A DNA stretch of 18,692 nt from an uncultured Lentisphaeraceae bacterium (GTDB lineage Bacteria; Verrucomicrobiota; Kiritimatiellia; RFP12; UBA1067), in the NCBI GenBank assembly GCA_964643945.1, contig CAZXVN010000184.1:1-18692 (forward strand). Direction: 5' to 3'. The notes beneath the pieces were generated by a model. It searched no databases. It was not told where the DNA came from and saw only the letters and a program-made list of their open reading frames with translations. The translations under genes and the position numbers were made by a program. Shown in pieces: positions 1 to 18,692 of this stretch (its first letter is position 1; every line of letters begins with the position of its first letter).

Positions 1-1391
1 ACCTCGTACTTGCCCACCCACAACTTGAGCGACGCCACCCAAACGAACTCCATGCCCGTTGACGGCGACGCCCACGGCTCACCCTCTGCCGGCCCACTGT
101 TTCTCACCTTGGCTGCGCTGGCCAAAGCCGCCGCGTCCGCCCTTTCCTTCGCCAGCCGCGCAGCCGCCTGCCGCTCCGCATCAGCCTTCTCCCGCTGTGC
201 CGCGAACAGCCTCGCCGCCTGCTCATTCCGGCTTCGGGCTTCTGTCTCCTGTCTCCTGTATTCTCCATACGTCCTATACGTCCCGTAAGCCAGCGCGACC
301 GCCGCAACCGCCGCCAGCCCCAGCGCCCACGCCTTCTTCTGACTCCTGACTCCCGGCTTCTGACTTCTGTCTCCCGCCAGCGCCGCCACGAAAGCGGAGC
401 AGTCGGCGAACCTCTCCCCCGGCTCCTTCGCCAGACCCCGCAGCAGCGCCGCGTTCTGCGCCTTGGTCAAAACCCCCAGGCTGTCCGGCTTCTTGTTCTC
501 CGCCGCATTGGCCATGATCACCGCATCGCCGGTGTCGAACGCGCTCGCGAACGGCACCGCGCCGCTGACCAGCTCGTAGAACAGCGCGCCCAGCGCGTAC
601 TGGTCCGCGCGCCCGTCCTGCTTCTTTCCTACCCACTGCTCCGGCGCCATGTACGGCCGCGTGCCGCTCGTGTCGCCCTTCTCCTGGCTCACCCGGCTCA
701 TGCTCGACCGGATCTCCGCCGCCAGCCCGAAGTCCAGCATCTGGACGGACAACCCCGTTCCCCTTCCGTCCCCGCTCCCCGTTCTGTCTTCTGACTTCTG
801 TCTTCTGACTTCTGTCTCTCGCGTTTCGACCATCACGTTCGAAGGCTTCACGTCCCGGTGTGCCACCCTCATGCCGTGCGCGTAGTCCAGCGCCTCCGCG
901 ACCTGCCGGCACACCTCCAGCGCCTGCGCCACCGGCACCTTGCCTTCGGAAAACTGCTTGCGCCACTTGGAGAGCGTAACCCCCGGCGCGTACGCCATCA
1001 CCATCAGGTAGTAGCCCGGCAGCACCCGCAGCGCCTGACGCACCCGCTCGTCGGCATACCGCGTCTCCTTGGCCTGATGCAGGTGCAAAGCGGCCGCGAT
1101 ATGCGGGTGGTGCAGCTTGGAGACCAGCGCGAAATTCTCCCGGATGCGCTCCAGCTCCTCGGCGTTGTTCCTCACCAAAGGCGGCAGCCCCTTCACCGCC
1201 ACCTCGATGCCCGCCACCGTGTCCCGCGCCAGGTACACCGTGCCGAACCCGCCGCCGCCCAGCTCGCGCAGCAGCTCGTACTGGTCGATGCAGCCCAGCG
1301 GAGCGCCTTCGCGGCCTGAGGTTTTCACGTCGCCCATACTCACCGGCCCGGCCCGGCGCATCGTCTCTTGATCAAAATCTTTTTCGCTCAT
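1..1391 (-). CDS. Hanks-type Ser/Thr protein kinase with TM segment and start of a C-terminal FGE-sulfatase (formylglycine-generating-enzyme-like) domain; partial, the 3' end runs off the window start
   Basis: My own translation gives an uninterrupted minus-strand frame from the ATG at 1391-1389 (RBS AAAGGAG 7 nt upstream) to position 1. It is absent from the ORF track only because no stop lies in the window. Motifs seen: LGGGGFGTVY, AVK, HRDVKPSNV, DFGLA, YMAPEQW, then TM segment WALGLAAVAAVALAY, then GMEFVWVASLKLWVGKYEV. It is a nucleotide-level paralogue of 8023-10128 (compare 400-680 with 9150-9420). It contains three in-frame heptamer-repeat insertions. Confidence 0.8.
   Translation of the reverse strand, partial: MSEKDFDQETMRRAGPVSMGDVKTSGREGAPLGCIDQYELLRELGGGGFGTVYLARDTVAGIEVAVKGLPPLVRNNAEELERIRENFALVSKLHHPHIAAALHLHQAKETRYADERVRQALRVLPGYYLMVMAYAPGVTLSKWRKQFSEGKVPVAQALEVCRQVAEALDYAHGMRVAHRDVKPSNVMVETRETEVRRQKSEDRTGSGDGRGTGLSVQMLDFGLAAEIRSSMSRVSQEKGDTSGTRPYMAPEQWVGKKQDGRADQYALGALFYELVSGAVPFASAFDTGDAVIMANAAENKKPDSLGVLTKAQNAALLRGLAKEPGERFADCSAFVAALAGDRSQKPGVRSQKKAWALGLAAVAAVALAYGTYRTYGEYRRQETEARSRNEQAARLFAAQREKADAERQAAARLAKERADAAALASAAKVRNSGPAEGEPWASPSTGMEFVWVASLKLWVGKYE
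233..267 (+). repeat. heptamer array (TYCTGWC)n, degenerate, lying in-frame in kinase 1-1391
   Basis: ttctgtc tcctgtc tcctgta ttctcc; encodes GEYRRQETEA in the kinase. Confidence 0.6.
334..378 (+). repeat. heptamer array (TYCTGWC)n lying in-frame in kinase 1-1391
   Basis: ttctgac tcctgac tcccggc ttctgac ttctgtc tcccgcc; encodes DRSQKPGVRSQKK. Confidence 0.7.
782..818 (+). repeat. heptamer array, 5 units, in-frame inside the kinase catalytic core
   Basis: ttctgtc ttctgac ttctgtc ttctgac ttctgtc; encodes ETRETEVRRQKSEDR between HRDVKPSNV and DFG. Confidence 0.8.
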
Positions 1392-2016: not shown

Positions 2017-2358
2017 TCACCTCCCGCCGTACATCAGCCAACCGGCCACACCTGCAGCGACCAGCAACACAATCACCAGAACGATCATGCCCCAGTAGCT
2101 GCGGTGGCGGCATACGCCCGCTGGCGGCAGCGCCGAATCGATGCGCGTCCGACCGGCCCGCGCGTTGTACTCCTGCTCAAGCGTTTCTTTTCGGTTCACA
2201 AATTTCTCTCTCCCCTTCTGTCTTCTGACTCCTGTCTTCTGTCTTCTGACTTCTGACTCCTGACTCCTGTCTTCTGACTCCTGTCTCCTGACTCCTGACT
2301 TCTGTCTTCTGTCTCTCAAAACACCGCCCCCAGAATCGGCGAGCCGGTCGTGCCGCAC
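2017..2358 (-). CDS. small hypothetical membrane protein; N-terminal part is encoded by heptamer-repeat array 2216-2313 (ER/K-rich) and the C-terminus is a TM helix; start uncertain (alternative GTG at 2199 with GGGGAGAG RBS)
   Basis: ORF in the track. C-terminal MIVLVIVLLVAAGVAGWLMY. It overlaps the 3' end of gene 2316-2957 by 42 nt in another frame. Confidence 0.3.
   Translation of the reverse strand: MRHDRLADSGGGVLRDRRQKSGVRRQESEDRSQESEVRRQKTGVRRQKGREKFVNRKETLEQEYNARAGRTRIDSALPPAGVCRHRSYWGMIVLVIVLLVAAGVAGWLMYGGR
2216..2313 (+). repeat. heptamer array, 14 perfect units
   Basis: Begins 3 nt after the stop of gene 2316-2957. Confidence 0.85.
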
Positions 2359-2957
2359 TCGTTCCAGAGCCCGATCTGCAGGCCGGCGCCGCTCTCGGCG
2401 TGGTTGATCAGGCCGATCTGCAGGCCGCGCAGACGCGTCGCGACATTCCAGATGCCGCCGATCTGAATGCCATTGACCGTATCCGCCCGATTGTGGATAA
2501 ACGTTACTTGAAGGGCGAGGGGCGCGTCGCCTTTAATCCGGTTATAGAGCCCTCCCACCTGGATGCCGCTGAAATCGTTGCAGATGTTGTCGAAAAAGTT
2601 GCAACTGATGCCGGCCGCATCGCCGTTGATCTCGCCGCTCACGCCGACATCAATCCCGTAGATGTCGTTGTGCCCGGCGGGCCAACCCGGCGAGCAGGCG
2701 TTCACACGAAGACCGTAGACGTTCCACCCGCGGGAGTAAGGGATACCCCACTCCAGCACCGTAATCGCGAGCGGGGTCACAGGCCCTTCGTGAGAGGTCT
2801 GCACCGATACGCCACCCGTTGCGCCCATCGGCACCGTGCCGGGCGGCACCGTCGAAGGCGGGGCCGTCTTACCCCCCGGGTTCATGTCCGTCCCGGCTGC
2901 CGCCGCGAGGGCGAGCCCCACCGCGACGCCCGCCGTCACTATTTGTTTCATCTTCAT
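2316..2957 (-). CDS. secreted Gly-rich beta-repeat protein (signal peptide; repeated G-x-Q-I/V-G-G/L-x-N units)
   Basis: Signal peptide MKMKQIVTAGVAVGLALAAAAG; AAGGA RBS upstream. Internal repeats GIQVGGLYN, GIQIGGIWN, GLQIGLINH, GLQIGLWNE. Confidence 0.65.
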   Translation of the reverse strand: MKMKQIVTAGVAVGLALAAAAGTDMNPGGKTAPPSTVPPGTVPMGATGGVSVQTSHEGPVTPLAITVLEWGIPYSRGWNVYGLRVNACSPGWPAGHNDIYGIDVGVSGEINGDAAGISCNFFDNICNDFSGIQVGGLYNRIKGDAPLALQVTFIHNRADTVNGIQIGGIWNVATRLRGLQIGLINHAESGAGLQIGLWNECGTTGSPILGAVF

Positions 2958-2988
2958 CGTTCGTTTCCTTTTTCTCTGTCTTCACTCC

Positions 2989-3876
2989 TCACCGATGGAT
3001 ATTCAGCTCCTCAATCGTGTAAAGCCGGTTGATGATTCCGTCCGGGAAACGGTCGCGGTCATACACGATCCGGGCCTGCAACGTCCTGTTGACGTTATCC
3101 GTCGCAAGGATCGTACAGTCGTAAACCCCGGCGAGCGCGCGCACCCGTTGCGTAAACAGGGTCGGGTATTCCGAGTGAGACGAGAGGAACCAGGCGTTGG
3201 CGATCGTCACCATGCAGATCTCTGCCTTGCCGCCGACCTTCACACACGCGTCCGCCAGCCAGGGCGACACGGTTGTGGCCATCTTGTCGGCCACACTCTT
3301 CAGCGCGTCTCCTGCACCACGTCCGGGCGCGCCCTGCACGTCAAACCGGTTACGCGCCACCATGTCCGTCATCACCTGTTTCGTGATGGCGTTGAACTCC
3401 GGCGAGCGGGTAACAGTCGCATCCACATCGCCCTTATAAACCACCCGCGTACCGCGCGCGTTCAGCGGTTCGCAGGTCACGCCGAGGTCCGCATAGAGCT
3501 CGGCCGGCCCGTCATAGACCACTTTGTAGTTGGCGGCCGCCAGCGCGCCTTGCACGCCGTTGCCGAGCAGCGTCGCAACCTGCGTGGCATCCTGCCCCGC
3601 AGCCACGGGACGCACCCGCACCCGTACCTGCTCCAACACCGCCGACGCCGTGGCGATCTGGGTTTGCGCCGGACGCAGATCCACCGCCGTCGGACGCGCG
3701 CCAACCCCGGTCACCTGCACCGGCTGCGGCGTCACGATCATTCCGGGACTGGCCGTCACGGACACGCCGCCGGCCGTTGTTGCGGGATAGAGCACCGTCT
3801 TCGTTTCCACCGTCCGGCAGCCTGTCATCGCCAGCGCGAGCATGCCGGCACCTGTCACAAACATCATTTTTTTCAT
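2989..3876 (-). CDS. hypothetical lipoprotein
   Basis: Lipoprotein signal MKKMMFVTGAGMLALAMTGC (lipobox LAMTGC). 16-nt gap to the upstream gene and 31-nt gap to the downstream gene. Confidence 0.65.
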   Translation of the reverse strand: MKKMMFVTGAGMLALAMTGCRTVETKTVLYPATTAGGVSVTASPGMIVTPQPVQVTGVGARPTAVDLRPAQTQIATASAVLEQVRVRVRPVAAGQDATQVATLLGNGVQGALAAANYKVVYDGPAELYADLGVTCEPLNARGTRVVYKGDVDATVTRSPEFNAITKQVMTDMVARNRFDVQGAPGRGAGDALKSVADKMATTVSPWLADACVKVGGKAEICMVTIANAWFLSSHSEYPTLFTQRVRALAGVYDCTILATDNVNRTLQARIVYDRDRFPDGIINRLYTIEELNIHR

Positions 3877-3892
3877 GATCGCTTTCCCTTTC

Positions 3893-5110
3893 TCAGCGCA
3901 CGCGGAAAATCAGCCGCGAGGCAAACCAACACACAACGAACACAATCAACAGCAGCACGATGTTGCGCAGCGTGACCAGCGCCAAAAGCTGGTCCACCAC
4001 GTTCTCCTGCAGCACATCCGGCTTGTAAATGCCGCGTCCGCTGGCGGCCGCGACGATCGCGAAGCTGTCGTTGATGTCACGGAACTTCGCGTCGAACACG
4101 ACCTCGGTGCGGATGGCGTTGGCCTTGATTGCCGTCGCCGAGCCCGTCACCGCGCCGATCCGGTCGCCGACCGGATCAACGACCGTCACGGGCGAGGCGT
4201 CCAGCACCGACACCGCGCCGGAAAGCACCGCCACCTTATCGCTGGCCGAACCTCGCTCCCCGCCGATGTCCTGATTGATCCGCTTGAGCAGAGAGTTGCT
4301 GACCTGCCGGTTCGTACCCACACGTTCGCGCAGAAAACGGGCCATCATCCGGTCGCGCACACTGCCGTTGGGGAGGTCAAGCACGCGGATGCTTTGCTCC
4401 TTGGAAAGACAGCGCAGGAAGTTCTGGGTCATGGCCCGGCCCAATGGGCCTTCCAGCGGCAGCACCAGAATCCGGTATCCCGCCAAACGCGAGAGCACCT
4501 GGCTAGCCGCATCTTCCGCCGCCTTCTCCATGGCCATGCGCGTGTTGCGGCTGACCATCTCGTTGTCCGGGCCCGGATCGTCGTAGATGCCCTCGACCGT
4601 TCCCGCCCACAGCCGCTCCGCCGTTTCAATACTGATCAGCCGTAATGAAACCCGCACGCTCGCTTTGCCGGCCCCGTCCGTCGCGTCAATCACACGTCCG
4701 ATGATGAAGGCTTCGGCCATTTTGAAAACGCCCGTTTTCGGCAGCGTCGCGGGATCATAATCGCCGAAGTCCGTGGCGGCGTCAAAGAACCGGTCGACTT
4801 CCGTCCACTCGGCCGCCTGATCCTGATGCGTCAGAAATTCAAACTCGGAAGGCGCCTGCACCAGCCCGTTCTCGAACACCGTTGCGAACTCGTTGCCTTC
4901 GGGAATCTTCGCGTTTCCCCGCATGAGTTTGACGAACGCGATGCGTTTGACTTTCACGCGGCTGTCCGTGGTCATTTGCATGACCGCCTGGAAAGCGGCG
5001 TCCTCCGCTGCGTATGAAAGCTCCCGCGGACCAGCGGTAACCGTCTGAGCGGTTGTGAGAAACCCCACGGTGCCAAGCGCGGCAACCGCGAGACCTGTGA
5101 AACGTTTCAT
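3893..5110 (-). CDS. exported protein with N-terminal signal peptide and C-terminal TM anchor; tandem domains loosely reminiscent of a CsgG/LpoB-type fold (inference)
   Basis: The internal ATG at 5110 has a strong RBS (AAAGGAG, 7 nt spacer). The track ORF 3893-5500 extends further upstream through repeat array 5275-5351, which is unlikely to be coding. Signal peptide MKRFTGLAVAALGTVGFLTTAQTVTA; C-terminal NIVLLLIVFVVCWFASRLIF. Confidence 0.6.
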   Translation of the reverse strand: MKRFTGLAVAALGTVGFLTTAQTVTAGPRELSYAAEDAAFQAVMQMTTDSRVKVKRIAFVKLMRGNAKIPEGNEFATVFENGLVQAPSEFEFLTHQDQAAEWTEVDRFFDAATDFGDYDPATLPKTGVFKMAEAFIIGRVIDATDGAGKASVRVSLRLISIETAERLWAGTVEGIYDDPGPDNEMVSRNTRMAMEKAAEDAASQVLSRLAGYRILVLPLEGPLGRAMTQNFLRCLSKEQSIRVLDLPNGSVRDRMMARFLRERVGTNRQVSNSLLKRINQDIGGERGSASDKVAVLSGAVSVLDASPVTVVDPVGDRIGAVTGSATAIKANAIRTEVVFDAKFRDINDSFAIVAAASGRGIYKPDVLQENVVDQLLALVTLRNIVLLLIVFVVCWFASRLIFRVR

Positions 5111-5163
5111 CGTGATGCTCCTTTGTTTTGTTCCCGCCGGACACCGCCGGCGGAAAGCGTTGT

Positions 5164-5188
5164 TGAAGAAGAAGTCAGAAGAAGACAG
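5164..5188 (-). repeat. reverse-orientation heptamer copy (GWCAGRA) in the spacer; inverted partner of 5275-5351
   Basis: gaagaagaa gtcagaa gaa gacagga. Confidence 0.6.
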
Positions 5189-5231
5189 GATTCGGAATCG
5201 CCGATGCCGACTGCTTTTTTCCGTCTTGCTT

Positions 5232-6179
5232 TCATTCCGGCTCCTGACATTTAATGCCCGTCTTTTCTTTCCCCTTCTGACTTCTGTCTTCTGACTCCTG
5301 GCTTCTGTCTTCCGACTTCTGTCTCCTGTCTTCTGTCTCCTGACTTCTGTCGCCCGTCTCCCCGAACCCGGCCAGCTCGGCCGCGAAATCGCCCGTGTCC
5401 CGGTCGCGCCTGCGGCCCGCGCGGTCCAGGTCTCCCACGGCGTCCTGCACCGACTCGGCGTCGCCGGTCTTGTCCTCGATGTCGTCCGCGAGCCGGTCAA
5501 TCAGGTTCTCGTCCACCTTGCCGCGCAGGCCGTGCGCGATCAGCTCCATGAAGCGCCCCTTGACCGTGAGGATCGTCTGCTCGTTCTCCGAGAGCAGCAT
5601 GAACTCGCGCTCCAGGCTCTTGTACTGCGTCATCAGCGTCTGCAGCTCGGTCTTCAACATGCGCTGGCGGACCGGCGAGGCACCCTCGTAGGCCTTCTTC
5701 TTCGAGGCGATCACCCCGTGCAGCACCTCCATCTCGGCCGACGCCTTCTCGCGCCGCGCGCGGTTCTCGTCCAGGCCGCTGTTGAGCGAACCCAGCATCG
5801 CCTCGGGCGAACGGTCCACATGGATCTTCGCCCACAGACCCTTCACGCCCGCGCCGATCTTTCCGGCCAGAACGACAGTCTCAGCCATGGCCTTCTTCGC
5901 CAGCTCCTTCGTGGCGCTGCGGACAAGCCGCTGTTCCTCCTCGCGGTTCTCGGCCCCTGTCTCATCCTTCTGACTTCTGTCTTCTGTCTTCTGACTTCTG
6001 ACTTCTGTTCCCATAACCTTCTCCTTCCATCCGTGCTCCGGACACCGCCCGTTACCTTGATTCGCATGCAACACGCAGAACGCCGCCCCGCACCCCTTCT
6101 CCGCACAGCGCCCCCCGACCGCCCAGCGGTTCGGCAGACTTTGCTCGCATATGCAACACTGTTCGCGCTTGTCATTCAT
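5232..6179 (-). CDS. zinc-ribbon protein with ER/K-rich linker and ~190-aa coiled-coil/helical domain (possible PspA/ESCRT-III-like); C-terminus encoded by repeat array
   Basis: N-terminal CCICEQ...C...C..CPEHG zinc-ribbon motif, then a helical region (RLVRSATKELAKKAMAE ... LIDRLADDIEDKTGD). Two heptamer arrays lie in-frame (5968-6009 linker, 5275-5351 C-terminus). The duplicated promoter element is ~160 nt upstream. Confidence 0.55.
   Translation of the reverse strand: MNDKREQCCICEQSLPNRWAVGGRCAEKGCGAAFCVLHANQGNGRCPEHGWKEKVMGTEVRSQKTEDRSQKDETGAENREEEQRLVRSATKELAKKAMAETVVLAGKIGAGVKGLWAKIHVDRSPEAMLGSLNSGLDENRARREKASAEMEVLHGVIASKKKAYEGASPVRQRMLKTELQTLMTQYKSLEREFMLLSENEQTILTVKGRFMELIAHGLRGKVDENLIDRLADDIEDKTGDAESVQDAVGDLDRAGRRRDRDTGDFAAELAGFGETGDRSQETEDRRQKSEDRSQESEDRSQKGKEKTGIKCQEPE
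5275..5351 (+). repeat. heptamer array, 11 units; encodes the C-terminus of gene 5232-6179
   Basis: ttctgac ttctgtc ttctgac tcctggc ttctgtc ttccgac ttctgtc tcctgtc ttctgtc tcctgac ttctgtc. Confidence 0.85.
5968..6009 (+). repeat. heptamer array, 6 units, forming an in-frame linker in gene 5232-6179
   Basis: Encodes GTEVRSQKTEDRSQKDE. Confidence 0.8.
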
Positions 6180-6235: not shown

Positions 6236-6326
<91 letters not shown>

Positions 6327-6346
6327 TTTTTCCCTTAAACGCCGCT

Positions 6347-6376
6347 ATCTTACGTTTTGTTTACGTCTGTTGTCAA
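6347..6376 (-). promoter_or_regulatory. sigma70-like promoter (minus strand: TTGACA, 18-nt spacer, TAAGAT), copy A of a duplicated ~50-bp element; AT-rich UP-like tract at 6381-6440
   Basis: On the minus strand the sequence reads TTGACAACAGACGTAAACAAAACGTAAGAT. It is near-identical to 15977-16006 (4 mismatches over ~52 bp). Confidence 0.5.
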
Positions 6377-6482
6377 CTGCTATTATCAATTATTTTTAAA
6401 TTATTTTATTTTATCTCTGTTACTCATTACACGAACTCGAATCTTTCGCCGCTCTCGCCCCCCCATCGGACGGGCCCGCCCC

Positions 6483-7771: not shown

Positions 7772-7921
7772 TTACCCGGCCCGCGTCGCGTCCTCATTCA
7801 TCGTCTGCTGCCTGTTGTCCACCAACACGTTCGCTGGCTTGATGTCGCGGTGGACCACGCCCTGCCCGTGCGCGTATGCCAAAGCCTCCGCCACCTGCCC
7901 GCCCCACCACACGTCCAGCAT
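7772..7921 (-). pseudogene. relic fragment of a Ser/Thr kinase gene (subdomain VIb: [25 protein letters not shown])
   Basis: A 49-codon minus-strand [52 protein letters not shown]. The nucleotide sequence is similar to 9527-9600 of kinase 8023-10128. No N- or C-terminal kinase lobes flank it. Confidence 0.5.
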
Positions 7922-8022: not shown

Positions 8023-10128
8023 CTACTGACCTGGGAGAAGGACAGCCCGGAACCCGATCCTGGAGTCGCGGTGGTTCGGTTTGCGGCCGCCGCGGTCCGC
8101 AACCCGGCAATCGCCCGCGTAGCCGCGCCAACTGCCGCCGCGGGCCACGCGGGGCGAGCCCGACGTCGGACCTGCGGGATCAGTCACACTCCCGGACGGA
8201 TAATCGCCGTACCAGTCCTGGCACCACTCCCACACGTTGCCGAGCATGTCGTAAAGACCCCAGGCGTTCGCCTGTTTCTGCCCTACAGCATGCGTCACCT
8301 GCCCACTGTTGCCGCTATACCAGCCCATATCCAGAGCTCCTGCATACGATCCCACCGCCCCCGCTCGACAAGCATACTCCCACTCCGCCTCCGTCGGCAG
8401 CCGAAACCGTCCCCCGGGAGGGACGCGCGTCTGCGCGTCCGCCAGCTTCGCGTTCAGCTTCCTCATAAACTCCTGACAGTCCTCCCAACTCACCTTCTCC
8501 ACCGGCAAATCAGCGCTCTTAAAGTTGCTGGGGTTGGTGCCCATGACTGCCCCCCACTGCCGCTGCGTCACCTCGGTCTTCCCCATCCAAAACCCCTTAG
8601 TAAGCGTCACCCGGTGCTGTGTCTCGTCTTTAGACCGGCCCGTTTCGCTTTCGGGACTCCCCATCATAAAGCTACCCGCCGGGCACCACGCCAGCTCGAT
8701 CTTCACGCCGCCGCCGAGGTCTAAAGTCTCCGTGTCGCCAGGGTTATGTCCGGCCTTCTGCACGGCGGCGCTTGCCACCTTTAGCCTCTCGCTTTCAGCA
8801 GCCAACGCTTCCTGCTTATGCGTTTCTTCCTGCTCGGACGCCGGACGCGCAGACGCGCGTCCCTCCGAGGCGTTAACGGGAGGGTCAAGCGTCTGCTTGA
8901 CCGCAAGACGCGCCTGTATCTCATGCCGGTTCCAAAAAGCCGCGAACCCATAGGCGGTCACAGCCGCAACCGCTCCAGCCGCAACCCACAGCCACGCCTT
9001 CCTCTTTCCTCCGCCATCCGCCTTCTGGCCACCGCCCTCTGGCTCCCGACGCCCGACGCCCGACTCACGACTCTCGACTCCCTGTCTTACGACCTCCACC
9101 TTCCAGTTTCTCTCCCCCTGCCCTCCGGCACCCTTTCCCGCCAGCGCCTTCACAAATTCCCCGCAGCTCGCGAACCTCTCCCCCGGCTCTTTTGCCAGCG
9201 CCCGCAACAGCGCCGCGTTGACATGCGCCGGCACGCCTTCCAGCGGACGGGGTGCCTCTTTCAGCACCGCCTCGCGCAGCACCGCTGTGTCGTGGCCCTC
9301 GAAGGGCGGCGACCCGCCCACCAGCTCGTAGACCGTCGCCGCCAGCGCGTACTGGTCCGCGGGCGCGCCCTGCGGCCGCCCCTGCCACTGCTCCGGCGCC
9401 ATGTAGGGTCCCGTGCCGCTCGTGCCGTGGGTGGTCTGGCTCACGCGGCTCAGGCTCATGTGCAATTGCGCCGCGAGCCCGAAGTCCAGCACCTTCACCT
9501 CGCCCGCGAAGTTCACCCGCACGTTGCTCGGCTTGATGTCGCGGTGGATCACGCCCTGCTCGTGCGCGAAGTCCAGCGCCTCCGCGATCCGGTAGGCGAT
9601 GATCGTCACCTCGTCCAGCGTCAGCGGCCGGCCCTCCTCGCGCCGCCGCCGCACCCACTGCCGCACGTCGTAGCCGTCCACGCACTCCATGACCAGATAA
9701 TAGTCGCCCGTGACCGGATCCTTCTCCAGCGTGTTGACGTTGGCGATGTTCGGGTGGTGGAGCTTCGAGACCAGCCGGAAGTTCTCGCGCACCTCCTCCA
9801 TCTCGCCGCTGTTGTGCCCCACCTCCGGAGGCAGCGCCTTCAGCGCCACATCCAAGCCCGCCACCTCATCGTGGCAGCGGTACACCACGCCCATGCCGCC
9901 CTGCCCAAGCTCCCCCTCCACCCGGTAGCGCCCCAAAAGCACCTCGCCGGCCGCTAGGCGCCGCCCCGCAGGCCCCGCCCCGCCCGGCCGCATCGTCTTG
10001 ACGCTGCCTAGGCTCAAGTCATCCGCGGGTGCGCTCCCGCCATGCCGCAGGGTCGGCGAATCGCCCAGGCTGCGGTCGTCCGGCGGCTTGCCGCCCATCG
10101 TCTTTTGATTGCCGATCGAGTTATCCAT
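8023..10128 (-). CDS. Hanks-type Ser/Thr protein kinase - TM - FGE-sulfatase (SUMF1-like) domain fusion
   Basis: LGQGGMGVVY, ALK, HRDIKPSNV, DFGLA, YMAPEQW; TM segment WLWVAAGAVAAVTAYGFAAF; C-terminal FGE-like region (GSFMMGSP ... GLYDMLGNVWEW ... RGGSW). The start is uncertain because there is no clear RBS at 10128. Confidence 0.85.
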   Translation of the reverse strand: MDNSIGNQKTMGGKPPDDRSLGDSPTLRHGGSAPADDLSLGSVKTMRPGGAGPAGRRLAAGEVLLGRYRVEGELGQGGMGVVYRCHDEVAGLDVALKALPPEVGHNSGEMEEVRENFRLVSKLHHPNIANVNTLEKDPVTGDYYLVMECVDGYDVRQWVRRRREEGRPLTLDEVTIIAYRIAEALDFAHEQGVIHRDIKPSNVRVNFAGEVKVLDFGLAAQLHMSLSRVSQTTHGTSGTGPYMAPEQWQGRPQGAPADQYALAATVYELVGGSPPFEGHDTAVLREAVLKEAPRPLEGVPAHVNAALLRALAKEPGERFASCGEFVKALAGKGAGGQGERNWKVEVVRQGVESRESGVGRREPEGGGQKADGGGKRKAWLWVAAGAVAAVTAYGFAAFWNRHEIQARLAVKQTLDPPVNASEGRASARPASEQEETHKQEALAAESERLKVASAAVQKAGHNPGDTETLDLGGGVKIELAWCPAGSFMMGSPESETGRSKDETQHRVTLTKGFWMGKTEVTQRQWGAVMGTNPSNFKSADLPVEKVSWEDCQEFMRKLNAKLADAQTRVPPGGRFRLPTEAEWEYACRAGAVGSYAGALDMGWYSGNSGQVTHAVGQKQANAWGLYDMLGNVWEWCQDWYGDYPSGSVTDPAGPTSGSPRVARGGSWRGYAGDCRVADRGGRKPNHRDSRIGFRAVLLPGQ
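9044..9114 (+). repeat. degenerate heptamer-periodic array (TCCCGAC/GCCCGAC/TCACGAC/TCTCGAC...) lying in-frame inside kinase 8023-10128
   Basis: 7-nt periodicity read directly. It encodes VEVVRQGVESRESGVGRRE at the position homologous to the ER/K inserts of kinase 1-1391. Confidence 0.5.
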
Positions 10129-10151
10129 GGTGTTTGCTTGAGAAACCAGAT

Positions 10152-10165
10152 GTCAGGAGTCAGAA
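10152..10165 (-). repeat. reverse-orientation heptamer copy (gtcagga gtcagaa); inverted partner of 10191-10232
   Basis: Read directly. Confidence 0.5.
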
Positions 10166-10190
10166 TGCGTGCATCTTTCACCGCATTTCA

Positions 10191-10232
10191 TTCTGTCTTC
10201 TGACTTCTGTCTCCTGACTCCTGTCTTCTGTC
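10191..10232 (+). repeat. heptamer array, 6 units, in the Vps4-like to kinase spacer
   Basis: ttctgtc ttctgac ttctgtc tcctgac tcctgtc ttctgtc. Confidence 0.8.
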
Positions 10233-10234
10233 GC

Positions 10235-11353
10235 CTATCCGAACCGCGCCTGCCTGAACTTTTCGAACTCGCGCAGCATCGCTTCCGTGATCGAGCTGGG
10301 GACGCGCCGCCGCGCCTCCTCGAAGTCCCCTGCCGTCAAAACAGGATCGCCATCTTCAAGCACGGCGCGGCCGAGCGCAAGGCGCTTGGCCGTGTTCACG
10401 ACCGCCGCCACGTCGCTCCCGGAAAAGCCCTCCAGCGCCTCCGCCAGCGCGCCTCCATCCACCGCCTCGCCGCACACGGCGCTTCCCAGATGCTTTTTGA
10501 AAATGCCCAGCCGAGCCTCGGCGTCCGGCGGCCCGATGAAAATCTTCTCGTCGAAACGCCCCGTGCGGAACACCGCCTCGTCGATCTCCCACGGCTTGTT
10601 CGTGGCGCCCAGGATCAACAGCACGTTCTTCGTCTCGCGGAAACCGCCCACATCCGCCAGGAACTGCGTCACGATGCGGTGGTCGGCACCGGAGGTGCCG
10701 TCGTCGCGCTTGGGCAGCAGCGCCTCGACCTCGTCCAGAAACAGCACCGCCATCGGCTGCTCCTGAGCCGTGCGGATCAGCCGGCTCAGCCGCTGCTCCG
10801 ACTCGCCGTACCACTTGGACCGCAACTGCGCGCCCGAGGCATAGTAGAACGGACACTCCAGCACTCCCGCCACCGCCTTGCCCAGCATCGTCTTGCCGGT
10901 GCCGGGAGGGCCGTACACCAGCACGCCCCCGCCCGGATTCAGCCCCAGCGCCCGCGCTTTCTCGGGGCTCTTCATCGGATACACCACCATCTCGTGGATC
11001 ACGCGCTTCGCGTCGGCCATGCCCGCAATGTCGTCGAATGTCACGTCCGGCTTCTCCGCCACCAGCCACTCGTCGCCGTCGGAAGGCTCGACGCTCGACT
11101 CACGACCAGCGACGGGCGAATGCTGACCGCCGCCCGCCGACTGCCGCTTCTTTAGCTCATTCGCCAGCGCCACCCACCCCTCCGCGTCCTGCGCGTGCGC
11201 CTCGGCCACAGGCCCGCTGCTGCGCTCCGCCAGCGCGAAGCCGCACTCCGCCGCGCGCGCCGCCGCCGCCGCCGCACGCCCGTAGTCGCGCACCTTGACG
11301 AACTCCGCGCAGGCGTTCTCGTGCCCCGTTTTGATCTCAACCATCGAGCGCAT
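10235..11353 (-). CDS. Vps4-like (meiotic clade) AAA+ ATPase with ~100-aa N-terminal extension (possible MIT-like domain)
   Basis: Walker A GPPGTGKT; pore loop 1 SKWYGESE (the Vps4/spastin/katanin signature); Walker B LFLDEVEA; GATNKPWEIDEAVFRTGRFD; C-terminal helix MLREFEKFRQARFG (compare the Vps4 C-terminal ...W..EFG). The start follows the upstream gene's stop by 12 nt, with RBS GAGAGGGGA. Confidence 0.85.
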   Translation of the reverse strand: MRSMVEIKTGHENACAEFVKVRDYGRAAAAAARAAECGFALAERSSGPVAEAHAQDAEGWVALANELKKRQSAGGGQHSPVAGRESSVEPSDGDEWLVAEKPDVTFDDIAGMADAKRVIHEMVVYPMKSPEKARALGLNPGGGVLVYGPPGTGKTMLGKAVAGVLECPFYYASGAQLRSKWYGESEQRLSRLIRTAQEQPMAVLFLDEVEALLPKRDDGTSGADHRIVTQFLADVGGFRETKNVLLILGATNKPWEIDEAVFRTGRFDEKIFIGPPDAEARLGIFKKHLGSAVCGEAVDGGALAEALEGFSGSDVAAVVNTAKRLALGRAVLEDGDPVLTAGDFEEARRRVPSSITEAMLREFEKFRQARFG

Positions 11354-11365
11354 CGTTGTCCCCTC

Positions 11366-11989
11366 TCACTTCAGCATCTCGCGCACCTTCTCCTGGCCGC
11401 CGCCGATGCGGCGTTCCAGATCGGAAGAGGTCTTCGCGCTCACGCCGGAAATGTCGGCGGACACCTCCTGCTCCAGCGATTTCGTCAGCTCCTCCATGGA
11501 CGGGATGTGGTCCTGCATGTTGCCTGTCGCGCCTTCCATCTCCTTGTCGTACAGCGACGCCCAGAAGCGGTCCGCGTCCTGCTGCTCGCCCAGCAACTCG
11601 CCCGCCGTGTCGAACACGTCCTCGACCATTTCCGGATTGATGTCCGTTACCTTGTTGACCGCCGCCAGTGCGCTGGCGAACTCGGCGTCGGTCCCGGCGG
11701 TCTCCATCTTCATGAGATACTGCTCGAACACCCAGCGCTTCTGCTCCAGCTTGGTCATCAGCACCTGCGCCGCGCGGTAGCTGGTCAGGGAGCGCTGCGC
11801 GGCCGCCTTCTTTCCTTCCTTGAGCGCGTCCCGCGCCTTCTGCCAGTCCGCCTCCGCGTCCTTCTCCATACGCTTGGCGCGGTCTTTCACATCCTGCACC
11901 GCGTTCTCCGCCTGCCGGAACGCCCGCCGCCGGTCCTTGCGCACCGCCCGCTCTTTTTCCTTCTTCGTCTTGATGAATAGAAAACTCAT
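11366..11989 (-). CDS. ESCRT-III / Snf7-family (PspA-Vipp1 superfamily) protein
   Basis: 207 aa. N-terminus MSFLFIKTKKEKE resembles the CHMP/Snf7 MxxLFGK motif. Basic helical N-half (KDRRRAFRQAENAVQDVKDRAKRMEKDAE...KEGKKAAAQRSL) and acidic C-half (PEMVEDVFDTAGELLGEQQDAD...). C-terminal SSDLERRIGGGQEKVREMLK resembles a MIM1 (D/E)xxLxxRL motif. Strong RBS AAAGGAG. The next gene downstream is the Vps4-like ATPase. Confidence 0.65.
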   Translation of the reverse strand: MSFLFIKTKKEKERAVRKDRRRAFRQAENAVQDVKDRAKRMEKDAEADWQKARDALKEGKKAAAQRSLTSYRAAQVLMTKLEQKRWVFEQYLMKMETAGTDAEFASALAAVNKVTDINPEMVEDVFDTAGELLGEQQDADRFWASLYDKEMEGATGNMQDHIPSMEELTKSLEQEVSADISGVSAKTSSDLERRIGGGQEKVREMLK

Positions 11990-12008
11990 ACCATGCTCCT
12001 TTCTGAAC

Positions 12009-12043
12009 AGCAGAAGACAGAAGTCAGAAGACAGAAGTCAGAA
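12009..12043 (-). repeat. reverse-orientation heptamer array, 5 units; inverted partner of 12082-12154
   Basis: cagcaga gacagaa gtcagaa gacagaa gtcagaa. Confidence 0.8.
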
Positions 12044-12081
12044 TAAACACGTCGAGAAAGTCGCTTTTGTCGATCGTTCCA

Positions 12082-12154
12082 TTCTGATTCCTGACTCCTG
12101 ACTTCTGTCTCCCGTCTCATTCTGACTTCTGACTCCTGTCTCCTGACTCCTGCC
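12082..12154 (+). repeat. heptamer array, ~10 units, in the FHA to ESCRT-III spacer
   Basis: ttctgat tcctgac tcctgac ttctgtc tcccgtc ... ttctgac ttctgac tcctgtc tcctgac tcctgcc. Confidence 0.8.
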
Positions 12155-12157
12155 GTC

Positions 12158-13735
12158 TCACAGCCCATACTGACTAAACGTCTTGACCTCGATCTGCACG
12201 CCGCCCGCGCCGATCCGCGTGCCGGGCACCAGCCACCCCGCCGCACCCTCCGCACGCCAGGCGAACGCGCCGCGCTCGTGGCACACCGTCACCCCCTCGC
12301 ACCCCGGCAGAATGTTCCCGAGATCCAGGCAGGACCACATCACCGCATAGACCTCCGACACCGCGTCCCGGCGCCGCAGGATGACCGCAGGCGTCTTGCC
12401 GCGGTGGCACATCTTCTCGTCGCGCCCCCCGCACGCCGCGCACCGCGCCGTATCGAAAAAGCAGCCGTGCGCCGTCAGCCCGAAATCGTATGCGTCCGCC
12501 GTGCCCGCCAACCCCAGCGCGGCCACTGCGGGAAAACGGTCCGCCGGAAAGCGCTCGCTGCCCTTGACCGCCCGACCCTGCCAGAAAACCCCGCAGGCGG
12601 AGGCTTGCATCACACCGTTCTCAGTCCGCACACCGTCATGCACAATGCACTGCCCGTCGGCGTACTCCAGCGTGCAGTGAAACTTGCTGATGCGCGCGTT
12701 GCGTTCAGGAAGGGCCTCGCCGTCCGGCTCGAACAACCGCGTCACGATCTGATTGGCGCGGTTCTTGCCCAATGTGACCCGACTTCCCGCGATCAGATGC
12801 GCAATCCGGTTCCCGACGCGAAGAGTCACCCGCTCGGCCGTCGCCGCCGCAGGTGCCGCAGGCAGCGGGTGATGCAGCACCCAGCCCGACTCAAAAAGAC
12901 TCAGCCGGTGAAACGCCGGCGGCTTGGAGTGCAGCAGGTTCAGCAGTTCCTCGATCGAATGGGCCTGCCCGTTCTTGACCAGCTTGCTCACCGCCTCGGC
13001 CGCGTCCTGGTGTACACGGATATCCGCCGCATGCCCGGCCTTGATGTCGTTGTTGATGTTGAAGGTGATGTTGTCCGCGACCTGCTTGGTCGAACAGTCC
13101 GCCGGATAAACGAACAGGCATACCTCGGTCTCGTATGTGGTGGTCTTGCCGTCTTTCGTCAGCCCGAAGTAGACCGACGCCGAGAACGCGCCGTGATTCA
13201 TGGGATGCACCGGCAGGTTGATCCCGCGCGGCACCCCGAGCTTGGGGTTCGGCCAGTTGAAGGGATGCTCGACCACCTGAGAGATCCCGTTCGGCTTGAG
13301 CCACACGCGGACGTGCTGGACACCCTCGACAAGCGGCGTCAGCCGGAAGCGCACCAGCGCGCTGGCACCCGCCACGCAGAACGCCAGGGTGTCGCTTTCC
13401 ACACACAGCCACGGGCAATCCCCGAAGCCGTCATCGTCCGTGCCGACGCTCTGCGCCGCCGCAGTCCGCTCATTGACGGGTTCGGTGTTGAGCAGAATGA
13501 TCCGGGCCGGCCGCTCGTCAGGATCTGGCGTCCTGATGATCGCGGCAACCGCCGACGGCGCCTCGCCCACGGAATCGCCCGGCCTCCGCAGATAAGTCGG
13601 CTCCGGCCGGAAACCGCTCTCGGCTTCCGCAGGCGTTGCCGCCGACGGACCCGGCGCCAGCGGCGCGCCGCATCTGTCGCAGAACGAGCCCTCTACCGTC
13701 TTCCCTCCGCATGTCCGGCAACTCACCCGAGCCAT
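12158..13735 (-). CDS. zinc-ribbon + FHA-domain protein with Cys-rich C-terminal region
   Basis: N-terminal CRTCGGKTVEGSFCDRCG. FHA-like core GKNRANQIVTRL...RISKFHCTLEYADGQCIVHDGVRTENGVMQASACGV. C-terminal CAACGG...C..GCEGVTVC. RBS GAGGAG 8 nt upstream; the start lies 12 nt after the upstream stop. Confidence 0.7.
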   Translation of the reverse strand: MARVSCRTCGGKTVEGSFCDRCGAPLAPGPSAATPAEAESGFRPEPTYLRRPGDSVGEAPSAVAAIIRTPDPDERPARIILLNTEPVNERTAAAQSVGTDDDGFGDCPWLCVESDTLAFCVAGASALVRFRLTPLVEGVQHVRVWLKPNGISQVVEHPFNWPNPKLGVPRGINLPVHPMNHGAFSASVYFGLTKDGKTTTYETEVCLFVYPADCSTKQVADNITFNINNDIKAGHAADIRVHQDAAEAVSKLVKNGQAHSIEELLNLLHSKPPAFHRLSLFESGWVLHHPLPAAPAAATAERVTLRVGNRIAHLIAGSRVTLGKNRANQIVTRLFEPDGEALPERNARISKFHCTLEYADGQCIVHDGVRTENGVMQASACGVFWQGRAVKGSERFPADRFPAVAALGLAGTADAYDFGLTAHGCFFDTARCAACGGRDEKMCHRGKTPAVILRRRDAVSEVYAVMWSCLDLGNILPGCEGVTVCHERGAFAWRAEGAAGWLVPGTRIGAGGVQIEVKTFSQYGL

Positions 13736-13747
13736 AAGTTATTCTCC

Positions 13748-15418: not shown

Positions 15419-15526
15419 CGTATACCTCGCCTTTCATTGATTCGAATTCAACAGTCGGATTAGCACTAATCCTTATTCAGTTTTAAACACAATACCCGAA
15501 TCCATTCATTCATGCACGAAATTACT

Positions 15527-15540
15527 AACAGAAGTCAGAA
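15527..15540 (-). repeat. reverse-orientation heptamer copy (aacagaa gtcagaa); inverted partner of 15594-15621
   Basis: Read directly. Confidence 0.5.
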
Positions 15541-15589
15541 TAGTGGAAGAATTTGCTTTCAACCGTTTGCCCGTCTTCTCTTTCCCGCC

Positions 15590-15949
15590 TCAGTCTGACT
15601 TCTGTCTTCTGACTTCCGGCTTCTTCTCCCCATGTGCCCCGCACACTCGCACGCCCTGCCGTTTCCAGCAATCGAAACAGACCGGCGCGCCGCAGACCGT
15701 GCAGGCCTGCTGCAGCGCGCCCTTGCTCCGGTAATAGGTGCCGCACGCCTCGCAGGTCCCGCCTTCGGCGGCCTCCCGCTTGCTGCGGCTCAAATAGTCG
15801 CCCAGATCCGTCCGCGAGACCCGGTACAGCTTGCCCAGGCGCGCGGCGGGCAGCTCGCCCGCGCGCACCAGCCGGTAGATGAGTTGATAGGTCACGCCCA
15901 TCTCGTCCGCTACCTCCTCCAGGCTCAGATGCTCTTTGTCCGTCGGCAT
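15590..15949 (-). CDS. HTH_17 (MerR/excisionase-family) DNA-binding protein with C-terminal zinc ribbon; putative regulator and first gene of string 1
   Basis: LSLEEVADEMGVTYQLIYRLVRAGELPAARLGKLYRV (helix-turn-helix), then CEACG...CTVCG..CFDC...C. The preferred start is the ATG at 15949 with GGAGGTG 7 nt upstream; the track's 15955 is a GTG inside the RBS. The last codons read into repeat array 15594-15621. Confidence 0.65.
   Translation of the reverse strand: MPTDKEHLSLEEVADEMGVTYQLIYRLVRAGELPAARLGKLYRVSRTDLGDYLSRSKREAAEGGTCEACGTYYRSKGALQQACTVCGAPVCFDCWKRQGVRVCGAHGEKKPEVRRQKSD
15594..15621 (+). repeat. heptamer array, 4 units, forming the C-terminus of the regulator gene
   Basis: gtctgac ttctgtc ttctgac ttccggc; encodes ...PEVRRQKSD*. 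Confidence 0.75.
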
Positions 15950-15976
15950 ATACACACCTCCTCTTAAAACGCCGCC

Positions 15977-16006
15977 ATCTTACGTTTTGTTTACTTCTGT
16001 TGTCAA
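15977..16006 (-). promoter_or_regulatory. sigma70-like promoter, copy B of the duplicated element (minus strand TTGACA, 18 nt, TAAGAT), ~25-nt leader to the regulator gene; AT-rich UP-like tract at 16011-16075
   Basis: On the minus strand the sequence reads TTGACAACAGAAGTAAACAAAACGTAAGATGGCGGCGTTTTAAGAGGAGGTGTGTATATG. Confidence 0.55.
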
Positions 16007-16081
16007 CAGCTATTTTAAAATATTTTTTATTGCTGTATTTTTATGCCTGATATAGCGTCCCTTAAACGGTTTCCCTGCTAC

Positions 16082-18691: not shown

Positions 18692-18692
18692 C

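What the first reader, a model, noticed from the sequence alone, without database searches (positions are those of the whole stretch)
5164..5351. Heptamer arrays occur as inverted pairs in operon spacers, predicting long imperfect RNA hairpins
Four times a forward array is followed 20-80 nt further along the minus-strand transcript by a short reverse-orientation copy. The pairs are 5275-5351 with 5164-5188, 10191-10232 with 10152-10165, 12082-12154 with 12009-12043, and 15594-15621 with 15527-15540. Each lies between a stop codon and the next gene's RBS. This gives 14-35-bp imperfect stems with no U-tract, so they are not canonical intrinsic terminators. They could be mRNA stability or processing elements, RNase III sites, or attenuators that set the stoichiometry of the downstream genes.
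Basis: seen in the sequence. Interest (0 to 1): 0.55.

Follow-up and report, generated by a model that had tools for sequence, protein, structure and literature searches.

The report
Inverted heptamer-repeat hairpins between operon genes
The spacers between genes in this Kiritimatiellae contig hold paired, oppositely oriented runs of a 7-base repeat that would fold into long RNA hairpins; the same arrangement, function unknown, was described in Xanthomonas, so this is real but not new.

Summary
Four minus-strand runs of GWCAGRA are each followed 25-86 nt later by a short reverse run (TYCTGWC). Three of the four spacers fold better than shuffles (z -2.8, -4.8, -5.5; the fourth is -0.3).

One detail is wrong: in pairs 1 and 4 the forward run lies inside the 3' end of the upstream ORF, not after its stop. 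Four further runs on the same contig lack a partner, and others sit inside kinase genes.

The pairs match no Rfam family and are not canonical terminators. All but one are missing from relatives: the FHA-like to Snf7-like spacer is 168 nt here and 22-56 nt in three orthologous loci (70-80% protein identity). They are therefore young and lineage-specific.

The arrangement matches Xanthomonas GGGAATC repeats (Rehm 2015): the purine-rich strand follows the stop, pairs are convergent, and function is unresolved.

New here: the same unit occurs in at least 120 loci across many phyla, and pairs are almost always purine arm first (32 to 1).

Best reading: slippage-born heptamer repeats, kept only where harmless, that are co-transcribed as intercistronic stem-loops with REP-like effects. 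The function is inferred, not shown.

The parts
5275..5351 (-). Pair 1, purine-rich arm: about 11 units of GWCAGRA. It lies inside the 3' end of ORF 5232-6179 and is translated as DRSQETEDRRQKSEDRSQESEDRSQK.
   Evidence: TRF; regex scan; sequence; gene call 12647-13429 in L121.
5164..5190 (-). Pair 1, pyrimidine-rich arm (TCCTGTCTTCTTCTGACTTCTTCTTC). It pairs with the 3'-most units of the array in a stem of about 21 bp. A second GC hairpin and the RBS/ATG (5108-5110) follow.
   Evidence: Fold, z -2.84; inverted repeats I10, I14, I15.
5255..5273 (-). Inter-arm core GGGAAAGAAAAGACGGGCA, shared with pair 4.
   Evidence: 2 matches against 0.01 expected; alignment A1.
10191..10232 (-). Pair 2, purine-rich arm: 6 units. 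It starts 2 nt after the TAG stop of the AAA ATPase gene (10235-11353).
10141..10165 (-). Pair 2, pyrimidine-rich arm (TTCTGACTCCTGAC plus extension). It ends about 23 nt before the ATG of the kinase-FGE gene (10128).
   Evidence: Fold, z -4.82; inverted repeats I5, I13, I16.
12082..12156 (-). Pair 3, purine-rich arm: two blocks, about 9 units. It starts at the TGA stop of the 525-aa gene (12158-13735).
12009..12043 (-). Pair 3, pyrimidine-rich arm: about 5 units. It ends 19 nt before the ATG of the Snf7-like gene (11989). The RBS AAGGAG is left unpaired.
   Evidence: Fold -71.1 kcal/mol, z -5.54, stem about 45 bp; inverted repeats I1-I4.
15594..15621 (-). Pair 4, purine-rich arm: 3-4 units that encode the C-terminal residues of the HTH_17 protein (stop at 15590-15592).
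   Evidence: An array at the same gene end occurs in relative L122, 2281-2308.
15527..15540 (-). Pair 4, pyrimidine-rich arm (TTCTGACTTCTGT): a perfect 13-bp stem. It aligns with the U-run side of a weak terminator-like hairpin in relatives L122 and L126.
   Evidence: Folds; spacer comparison.
15568..15586 (-). Inter-arm core GGGAAAGAGAAGACGGGCA, shared with pair 1.
2216..2313 (-). Lone array of 14 units. It starts at the TGA stop of gene 2316-2957 and has no inverted partner.
6236..6326 (-). Lone array of 13 units in a 5' leader, downstream of a promoter-like site (6347-6376). No partner.
5968..6002 (-). Array of 5 units inside the 5' part of ORF 5232-6179.
240..816 (-). Three arrays in sense orientation (240-253, 337-371, 782-816) inside a Pkinase+FGE-sulfatase gene.
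   Evidence: gene call L144 11567-13516.

Best explanation
**What it is (shown).** The four pairs are convergent inverted pairs of one heptanucleotide simple-sequence-repeat family. The unit is GWCAGRA on the sense strand. The same unit litters this Kiritimatiellae contig.

**How it arises (inferred).**
- Arrays grow and shrink by replication slippage, as proposed for bacterial heptamer repeats in general.
- They persist only where they do no harm.
  - The purine-rich strand has no stop codon in any frame, so it can sit at or inside the 3' end of a gene.
  - The pyrimidine-rich strand carries TGA in all three frames. It is C/U-rich and G-poor, and in this window it occurs only just downstream of a purine arm that can pair with it.

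**How it works (inferred).** The spacer is co-transcribed with the operon. The two arms zip into a long imperfect stem. The stem runs from the upstream stop codon to about 20 nt before the next start and leaves the RBS free. It would act as a generic intercistronic stem-loop:
- a barrier to 3'-5' exonucleases;
- a possible RNase III substrate in pairs 1-3;
- a pause or partial-termination site, favoured by the weak hybrid that the pyrimidine-rich 3' arm forms with DNA.

This is the way REP/BIME elements work in enterobacteria. The effect is a by-product that differs between lineages. It is not a conserved regulator.
For: - **One repeat family.** Period 7 accounts for nearly all strong TRF arrays in the window, all with one unit.
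- **Hairpins beat shuffles** in 3 of 4 spacers, and the RBS stays unpaired in the pair 1 and pair 3 folds.
- **Young and lineage-specific.**
  - The FHA-like to Snf7-like spacer is 168 nt here, against 56, 26 and 22 nt in L122, L124 and L125.
  - L124-L129 and 14 metagenome relatives (62-91% identity) have no GWCAGRA array. L122/L123 keep only the HTH_17-end array and one intragenic array.
- **Same layout published for another unit.** In Xanthomonas GGGAATC repeats, the G-rich strand lies 0-50 bp after the stop or overlaps it. There are 70-75 convergent pairs per genome, mostly between aligned ORFs, and most are transcribed (PMC4692102).
- **Cross-phylum recurrence.**
  - At least 120 loci carry five or more GWCAGRA units.
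  - Neighbouring opposite arrays are purine arm first in 32 cases and the reverse in 1.
  - At least 8 of these pairs fill tight co-directional spacers.
- **Rule extends to other units.** Strongly purine-skewed heptamers of other families are purine arm first 17 to 3 by my count from the table.
- **Sense-strand bias.** The sense-strand RNA fold is the more stable one in 11 of 13 co-directional pairs.
- **Arm lengths.** The sense purine arm is longer than the pyrimidine arm in 8 of 12, equal in 2 and shorter in 2.
- **Pair 4 position.** Relatives L122 and L126 have a weak hairpin plus a U-run at the same place.
Against: - There are no expression, 3'-end or cleavage data for this organism, so every functional step is inferred.
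- In pairs 1 and 4 the 5' arm is translated, so ribosomes would melt the stem.
- Four further non-coding arrays on the contig have no partner (window 2216-2313, 6236-6326; L144 13534-13561), or sit in an ORF 5' end (5968-6002).
- Arm lengths are poorly matched, which argues against strong selection on the stem.
- Pair 4's fold does not differ from shuffles.
- Slippage plus filtering does not by itself explain two things: why one unit dominates a genome, and why the same unit recurs in phyla from 31% to 68% GC.
- Lone arrays with the pyrimidine strand in sense do occur elsewhere, in 8 of 26 cases. The filter is therefore not absolute.
- Gene contexts in the cross-phylum loci come from my own crude ORF caller.
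Confidence: 0.5

Rival explanations
1. Purely neutral or selfish repeats. The arrays and their inverted partners are mutational debris from slippage and template switching between arms. They have no effect on expression, and the hairpin potential is incidental.
For: - The pairs at positions 2 and 3 are not conserved in relatives at 70-80% protein identity.
- Arm lengths are unequal.
- Many arrays are unpaired.
- Arrays also invade coding regions.
- In L032 the inverted repeat extends into unique flanks, as expected from an inverted duplication.
Against: - A 32 to 1 orientation bias across phyla needs some physical or selective asymmetry.
- So does the bias of strongly skewed units of other families (17 to 3, counted).
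- Sense-strand folds are more stable in 11 of 13 pairs.
- Stems stop short of the RBS.
Confidence: 0.25
2. A small mobile element of MITE type. Its terminal inverted repeats are heptamer arrays, and it inserts as a unit into spacers.
For: - Pairs 1 and 4 share a 19-nt inter-arm core, GGGAAAGARAAGACGGGCA (2 matches against 0.01 expected).
- The pair 3 spacer is about 110-145 nt longer than in relatives.
- The orientation of the arms is fixed, as for terminal inverted repeats.
Against: - Inter-arm sequences of pairs 2 and 3 and of the 20 cross-phylum pairs are unrelated.
- I saw no target-site duplication by eye, but made no systematic search.
- Pfam finds no transposase domain in the ORFs scanned in the window.
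- Pairs 1 and 4 both follow the first gene after a duplicated promoter region, so their similarity may come from an old segmental duplication.
- Arm lengths vary freely.
Confidence: 0.08
3. A DNA-level function. The arrays would be protein-binding iterons, or cruciform or slipped-strand structures that affect replication, recombination or nucleoid organisation.
For: - One unit is shared genome-wide and across phyla. This could reflect a conserved binding protein, an idea raised for TAACTGA repeats (PMC4679880).
- Inverted pairs can extrude as cruciforms (PMC4692102).
Against: - No candidate protein was identified.
- Arrays follow gene ends and the sense strand rather than any chromosomal pattern.
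- Sense-strand G-U pairs favour RNA over DNA.
Confidence: 0.07
4. Shine-Dalgarno and anti-Shine-Dalgarno mimicry. Purine units (CAGGAG) would hold 30S subunits after termination. Pyrimidine units (CUCCUG) would mask them or the next RBS. Together they would tune translational coupling.
For: - Of the 186 TRF period-7 arrays of the GWCAGRA family in the cross-phylum loci, 118 have a consensus unit containing GGAG.
- The arms sit exactly between the stop codon and the RBS.
- The universal 16S 3' end would explain recurrence across phyla (my inference).
Against: - In this window AGAAG units outnumber AGGAG units.
- Other heptamer families with the same layout (GGGAATC, TAACTGA) are not SD-like.
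- I made no test of it here.
Confidence: 0.05

Closest known systems
GGGAATC / GGGGA(C/T)T heptameric repeats of Xanthomonas and Nostoc (Rehm et al. 2015, PMC4692102)
   Same: - Tandem 7-nt units, 2-26 copies, and 89-93% intergenic.
- The purine/G-rich strand is on the coding strand 0-50 bp after the stop or overlapping it. It is on the non-coding strand just upstream of the next ORF.
- There are 70-75 convergent inverted pairs per genome with stem-loop potential.
- Most lie between aligned ORFs.
- Copy number varies between close species.
- Most are transcribed.
- Function is unresolved.
   Different: - The unit here is GWCAGRA, which has no G-tracts and so no quadruplex potential.
- The phylum is different (Kiritimatiellota).
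- In Xanthomonas most repeats lie between the same genes in two species. Here close relatives lack them.
Cyanobacterial STRR heptamers and Beggiatoaceae TAACTGA repeats (MacGregor 2015, PMC4679880); heptanucleotide long simple sequence repeats (Mrazek 2007, as cited there)
   Same: - Heptamer tandem arrays that are abundant in some genomes, absent from close relatives and scattered across phyla.
- They are mostly intergenic and near gene boundaries.
- Slippage is the proposed origin.
   Different: - TAACTGA arrays are short (2-6 copies) and lie in forward orientation directly upstream of start codons.
- Only one inverted set was found among 170.
- The units are different.
REP/BIME elements of enterobacteria (own knowledge: Newbury et al. 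1987; Liang, Rudd and Deutscher 2015)
   Same: - Dispersed intergenic repeats, often as inverted pairs in operon spacers.
- They are co-transcribed and fold into stem-loops.
- The stem-loops protect upstream mRNA from 3' exonucleases.
- When within about 15 nt of a stop codon they interfere with terminating ribosomes.
   Different: - REPs are palindromic units of 20-40 nt with a conserved sequence and a dedicated RAYT transposase.
- The elements here are tandem heptamers, and Pfam found no transposase domain in the ORFs I scanned.
- A separate GC-rich REP-like palindrome does occur in this clade.
Rho-independent (intrinsic) terminators
   Same: - A hairpin at a gene end with a pyrimidine/U-rich 3' side.
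- At pair 4 the relatives have a weak hairpin plus a U6-7 run.
   Different: - There is no GC-rich short stem followed by a U-tract.
- The scan reports no site at any pair.
- Stems are 13-45 bp and AU/GU-rich.
MITEs such as Correia or ERIC elements (own knowledge)
   Same: Short inverted-repeat elements inserted in operon spacers. They are transcribed into hairpins that are cut by RNase III or RNase E and alter mRNA stability.
   Different: - MITEs have a conserved full-length sequence and target-site duplications.
- Here only pairs 1 and 4 share a 19-nt core, and the arms are variable tandem arrays.

Membership tests
Heptanucleotide simple sequence repeats (long SSRs; STRR-like) | Head-to-tail tandem copies of a 7-nt unit, longer than chance allows. 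| tested here: met
   TRF period-7 arrays of 2.6-13.9 copies at ten sites, all with one unit.
Heptanucleotide simple sequence repeats (long SSRs; STRR-like) | Copy number and presence vary between close relatives. | tested here: met
   Absent from L124-L143. Only one shared position, in L122. No strain-level variation could be seen, because L145 and the NCBI record carry identical arrays.
Convergent inverted heptamer pairs (Xanthomonas type, PMC4692102) | The purine/G-rich strand is on the coding strand within 50 bp of the stop or overlapping it. | tested here: met
   Arrays start within about 6 nt of the stop (pairs 2 and 3, and 2216-2313) or overlap the ORF end (pairs 1 and 4).
Convergent inverted heptamer pairs (Xanthomonas type, PMC4692102) | A second array in convergent orientation close by, upstream of the next ORF and between aligned ORFs. 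| tested here: met
   Four pairs with gaps of 25-86 nt, all purine arm first and all between co-directional genes.
Convergent inverted heptamer pairs (Xanthomonas type, PMC4692102) | G-quadruplex potential (four or more G3 tracts). | tested here: not met
   The unit GWCAGRA has no G-tract. This feature defines the G4 subclass, not the layout.
Intrinsic terminator | A short GC-rich stem followed at once by a U-tract. | tested here: not met
   The scan reports no terminator-like site at any pair. The window total equals the shuffle expectation.
REP/BIME | A conserved palindromic unit of 20-40 nt and an associated RAYT transposase. | tested here: not met
   The arms are tandem heptamers. Pfam finds no transposase in the ORFs scanned in the window. 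The rest of the genome was not searched.
MITE | A conserved element sequence with terminal inverted repeats and target-site duplications. | tested here: inconclusive
   Pairs 1 and 4 share a 19-nt core. Pairs 2 and 3 do not. No target-site duplication seen by eye, and no systematic search was made.
RNase III substrate | About 20 bp or more of near-continuous double-stranded RNA. | tested here: inconclusive
   Predicted stems are about 21, 20 and 45 bp for pairs 1-3 and 13 bp for pair 4. Cleavage cannot be tested with these tools.
Any Rfam RNA family | A covariance-model match at the gathering score. | tested here: not met
   Only three sub-threshold microRNA-precursor matches, all on pair 3: 24-31 bits against cutoffs of 96-135.

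The most novel reading that the evidence does not exclude
The purine-first rule is nearly invariant across phyla (32 to 1) and holds for one shared unit. This could mean the pairs are made by an active, horizontally spread process and not by slippage. One candidate is a repeat-adding polymerase or reverse transcriptase that extends both 3' ends at a DNA break with (GWCAGRA)n, leaving a convergent scar. Alternatively, they could be a widespread class of U-tract-less bidirectional terminators or attenuators. These would exploit the weak hybrid that a pyrimidine-rich 3' arm forms with DNA.
Probability: 0.07. Interest if true: 0.8.

Novelty: new member of a known kind. Interest (0 to 1): 0.38.

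Why it matters
Heptamer repeats are the commonest long simple repeats in many bacterial genomes. The two detailed studies read here (PMC4692102, PMC4679880) and a 2022 Nostoc preprint left their function unresolved.

This window adds three things:
- The Xanthomonas layout (purine arm after the stop, pyrimidine arm before the next start, convergent) recurs with a different unit that cannot form quadruplexes, in Kiritimatiellota and in many other phyla.
- The layout therefore does not depend on G-quadruplexes.
- The purine-first orientation is close to a rule.

That rule gives a concrete handle for experiments. One can compare purine-first, pyrimidine-first and single-arm inserts between two cistrons, with and without RNase III or Rho activity.

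For annotation, these arrays extend ORFs artificially, break assemblies (L145 ends in arrays at both ends) and add low-complexity tails to proteins.

Tried and rejected
- **Rfam scan of the window.** Only sub-threshold microRNA-like matches to the pair 3 hairpin.
- **Canonical terminators.** No site at any pair, and no excess in the window.
- **Exact-sequence literature search** for the repeat. No paper.
- **First exact-protein lookup** (AAA ATPase). Not on record, probably because a different start codon was called. The Snf7-like protein then located the source contig.
- **Strain-level copy-number variation.**
  - L145 is 100% identical to window 2275-5996.
  - The NCBI record differs from the window by 6 SNPs and one 3-nt indel, none in an array.
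  - Nothing could be learned from either.
- **Gene calling in the cross-phylum loci.** Longest-ORF and G1-G2 heuristics failed on this high-GC window. An amino-acid-composition log-odds caller reproduced most of the deposited gene calls and was used instead. Contexts from it are approximate.
- **Strict Rho-avoidance filter.** It would predict no lone pyrimidine arrays in sense. This is weakened by 8 such arrays among 26 lone arrays.
- **CsrA-sponge idea** (CAGGA repeats as in CsrB). Dropped, because most units in this window are CAGAAG and lack GGA.
- **Segmental duplication versus mobility for pairs 1 and 4.** Only the promoter-like region (76 nt, 85.5%) and the 19-nt core are shared, so the question stays open.
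- **One contig without DNA.** P0008's contig could not be read.
Full report
**1. What is in the window**

The window is about 63% GC, and nearly all genes are on the minus strand. It matches NCBI contig JBAXCU010000023.1 of assembly GCA_037141315.1, apart from 6 SNPs and one 3-nt indel. Homologues of its proteins are labelled Kiritimatiellae.

TRF and a regex scan show that almost every strong tandem repeat has period 7 and one unit. The unit is GWCAGRA on the minus strand (TYCTGWC on the plus strand). The arrays fall into three groups:
- In pairs: 5275-5351, 10191-10232, 12082-12156, 15594-15621.
- Lone and non-coding: 2216-2313, 6236-6326.
- Inside ORFs: 240-253, 337-371, 782-816, 5968-6002.

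**2. Check of the observation**

Reverse-orientation copies lie at 5164-5190, 10152-10165, 12009-12043 and 15527-15540. Each is 25-86 nt downstream, on the minus strand, of a forward array. The window has no other reverse copy. Heptamer pairs fill most of the top of the list of longest inverted repeats.

Folded as minus-strand RNA, the four spacers give z-scores of -2.84, -4.82, -5.54 and -0.29 against dinucleotide shuffles. Pair 4 is only a perfect 13-bp stem (z -1.57 on a 121-nt segment). The terminator scan reports no terminator-like site at any pair, and the window total equals the shuffle expectation.

Two corrections are needed:
- In pair 1 the ORF 5232-6179 reads through the array and stops inside the loop. 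In pair 4 the array encodes the C-terminal residues of the HTH_17 protein. These two arrays therefore do not lie after a stop codon.
- Pairing is not general. On the whole 23.6-kb contig, about half of the arrays at or after gene ends have no partner.

**3. Comparison with relatives**

I fetched orthologous operons through the SPFH and Snf7-like proteins:
- L122/L123 (80% identity), L124 (77%), L125 (70%), L126/L127 (89%) and L128/L129 (77%).
- L130-L143 (62-91%).

None has a GWCAGRA pair in the spacers that correspond to pairs 2 and 3. The FHA-like to Snf7-like spacer is 168 nt here, against 56, 26 and 22 nt in L122, L124 and L125. In L126 it is 245 nt but holds no GWCAGRA array.

Only the array at the HTH_17 3' end is shared, with L122. 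There, and in L126, the downstream sequence forms a weak hairpin whose 3' side ends in a run of 6-7 U. That run aligns with the window's pyrimidine arm.

Some relatives carry other short tandem repeats in the same spacers, and by eye some of them form inverted pairs (L126, L131, L132). L122, L124 and L125 carry a GC-rich REP-like palindrome instead.

The pairs are therefore young and lineage-specific. The habit of filling spacers with self-complementary repeats is common in this clade.

**4. The same unit elsewhere**

They come from Cyanobacteria, Verrucomicrobiota, Acidobacteriota, Planctomycetota, Chloroflexota, Bacteroidota, Nitrospirota and others, at 31-68% GC.

- **Orientation.** All 20 opposite-orientation pairs within 200 nt had the purine arm first. 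With fuzzier detection the count is 32 purine-first and 1 pyrimidine-first, with 19 direct neighbours. This configuration reads the same on both strands, so it does not depend on the direction of transcription.
- **Inter-arm sequences.** They are unrelated to one another.
- **Context.** By my approximate gene calls, at least 8 of these pairs fill tight co-directional spacers. The purine arm starts -1 to 33 nt after the stop. In most, the pyrimidine arm ends 8-33 nt before the next start.
- **Lone arrays.** They point away from the nearer gene in 26 cases and toward it in 10.
- **Other heptamer families in the same loci.** Those with a strong purine skew are purine-first 17 to 3 by my count from the table.
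- **Sense strand.** The sense-strand RNA fold is the more stable in 11 of 13 co-directional pairs. The sense purine arm is longer than the pyrimidine arm in 8 of 12, equal in 2 and shorter in 2.

**5. Comparison with the literature**

Rehm et al. 2015 (PMC4692102) describe GGGAATC heptamer repeats in Xanthomonas:
- They are 89-93% intergenic.
- The G-rich strand is on the coding strand 0-50 bp after the stop or overlapping it. It is on the non-coding strand just upstream of the next ORF.
- There are 70-75 convergent inverted pairs per genome, mostly between aligned ORFs.
- Most are transcribed.
- A functional role 'still remains to be elucidated'.

MacGregor 2015 (PMC4679880) describes TAACTGA repeats scattered across Beggiatoaceae, Cyanobacteria and Bacteroidetes. 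That paper cites Mrazek 2007 for heptamers as the commonest long simple repeats and for polymerase slippage as their origin.

The window is thus a new member of this kind. It has a unit without quadruplex potential, and it comes from a new phylum.

**6. Mechanism**

- **Shown:** one repeat family, convergent pairs, predicted stems, absence of U-tracts, lack of conservation, and the cross-phylum orientation rule.
- **Inferred:**
  - The arrays arise by slippage.
  - The purine strand is tolerated at and inside gene ends because it has no stop codon in any frame.
  - The pyrimidine strand has TGA in all three frames and is C/U-rich. In this window it occurs only where a purine arm transcribed just before it can pair with it.
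  - The resulting stem acts like a REP/BIME-type intercistronic stem-loop: an exonuclease barrier, a possible RNase III site, and a pause or partial terminator.
- **The orientation rule** fits a physical asymmetry, because pyrimidine-rich RNA forms a weak hybrid with DNA. It also fits avoidance of unpaired C-rich RNA. Neither explanation is tested.
- **Rivals** are set out in their own section: neutral debris, a MITE-like unit (pairs 1 and 4 share a 19-nt core), a DNA-level function, and SD/anti-SD mimicry.

**7. Verdict**

The arrangement is already known in another phylum. The cross-phylum sharing of one unit and the near-absolute purine-first orientation are the parts worth following up.

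Noticed in passing
window 8023-15955 (- strand): A conserved Kiritimatiellae gene cluster. In order it holds:
- HTH_17;
- zinc-ribbon plus SPFH/Band7;
- a 525-aa FHA-like protein;
- a 207-aa Snf7/ESCRT-III-like protein (Pfam Snf7 E = 4.5e-4, below the cutoff; no PDB sequence hit);
- a single-domain Cdc48/VCP-D2-like AAA ATPase;
- a Ser/Thr kinase fused to an FGE-sulfatase domain.

The genes recur, with some rearrangement of order, in L122, L124, L125 and L129. It could be a bacterial membrane-remodelling module.
   Followed up: partly
window 240-253, 337-371, 782-816: Heptamer arrays in sense orientation inside a Pkinase+FGE-sulfatase gene. The array at 782-816 sits directly after the HRDxKxxN catalytic loop and is translated as ETRETEVRRQKSEDR. 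The paralogue at 8023-10128 is shorter at this point.
   Followed up: partly
window 8842-8903: A GC-rich REP-like palindrome (CGGACGCGCAGACGCGCGTCCCTCC / GGAGGGTCAAGCGTCTGCTTGACCG) lies inside the kinase-FGE ORF. The same repeat family fills intergenic spacers in relatives L122, L124 and L125.
   Followed up: no
window 6337-6412 and 15967-16041: A duplicated promoter-like region (85.5% over 76 nt; TTGACA-18-TAAGAT). One copy is upstream of the HTH_17 gene. The other is upstream of the 13-unit leader array and ORF 5232-6179. Both downstream genes end in the two pairs that share a 19-nt core.
   Followed up: partly
window 7772-7921: A 49-aa protein-kinase fragment is called between the kinase-FGE gene and the AAA_14/DUF4143 gene. 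It is probably a pseudogene remnant.
   Followed up: no
L126 4340-4455; L132 upstream of 1896; L131 downstream of 1127: Relatives without GWCAGRA arrays carry other short tandem repeats in the same spacers. By eye, some form inverted pairs, again with the purine-richer arm first:
- AAGATTA / TAATCTT in L126;
- GGTTCAG / CTGAACC in L132;
- TTTCCAT and TTTCGAA runs just before the RBS in L132.
   Followed up: partly
window 7587, 16140, 16112, 15032, 14990, 14987, 7382; 18658-18692: The window differs from the deposited contig by 6 SNPs and a 3-nt indel, and it extends 35 nt beyond the start of the record. No difference falls in a heptamer array.
   Followed up: yes
L145 (= window 2275-5996): An independent assembly contig of the same sequence begins and ends inside heptamer arrays. 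This shows that the arrays break short-read assemblies.
   Followed up: yes
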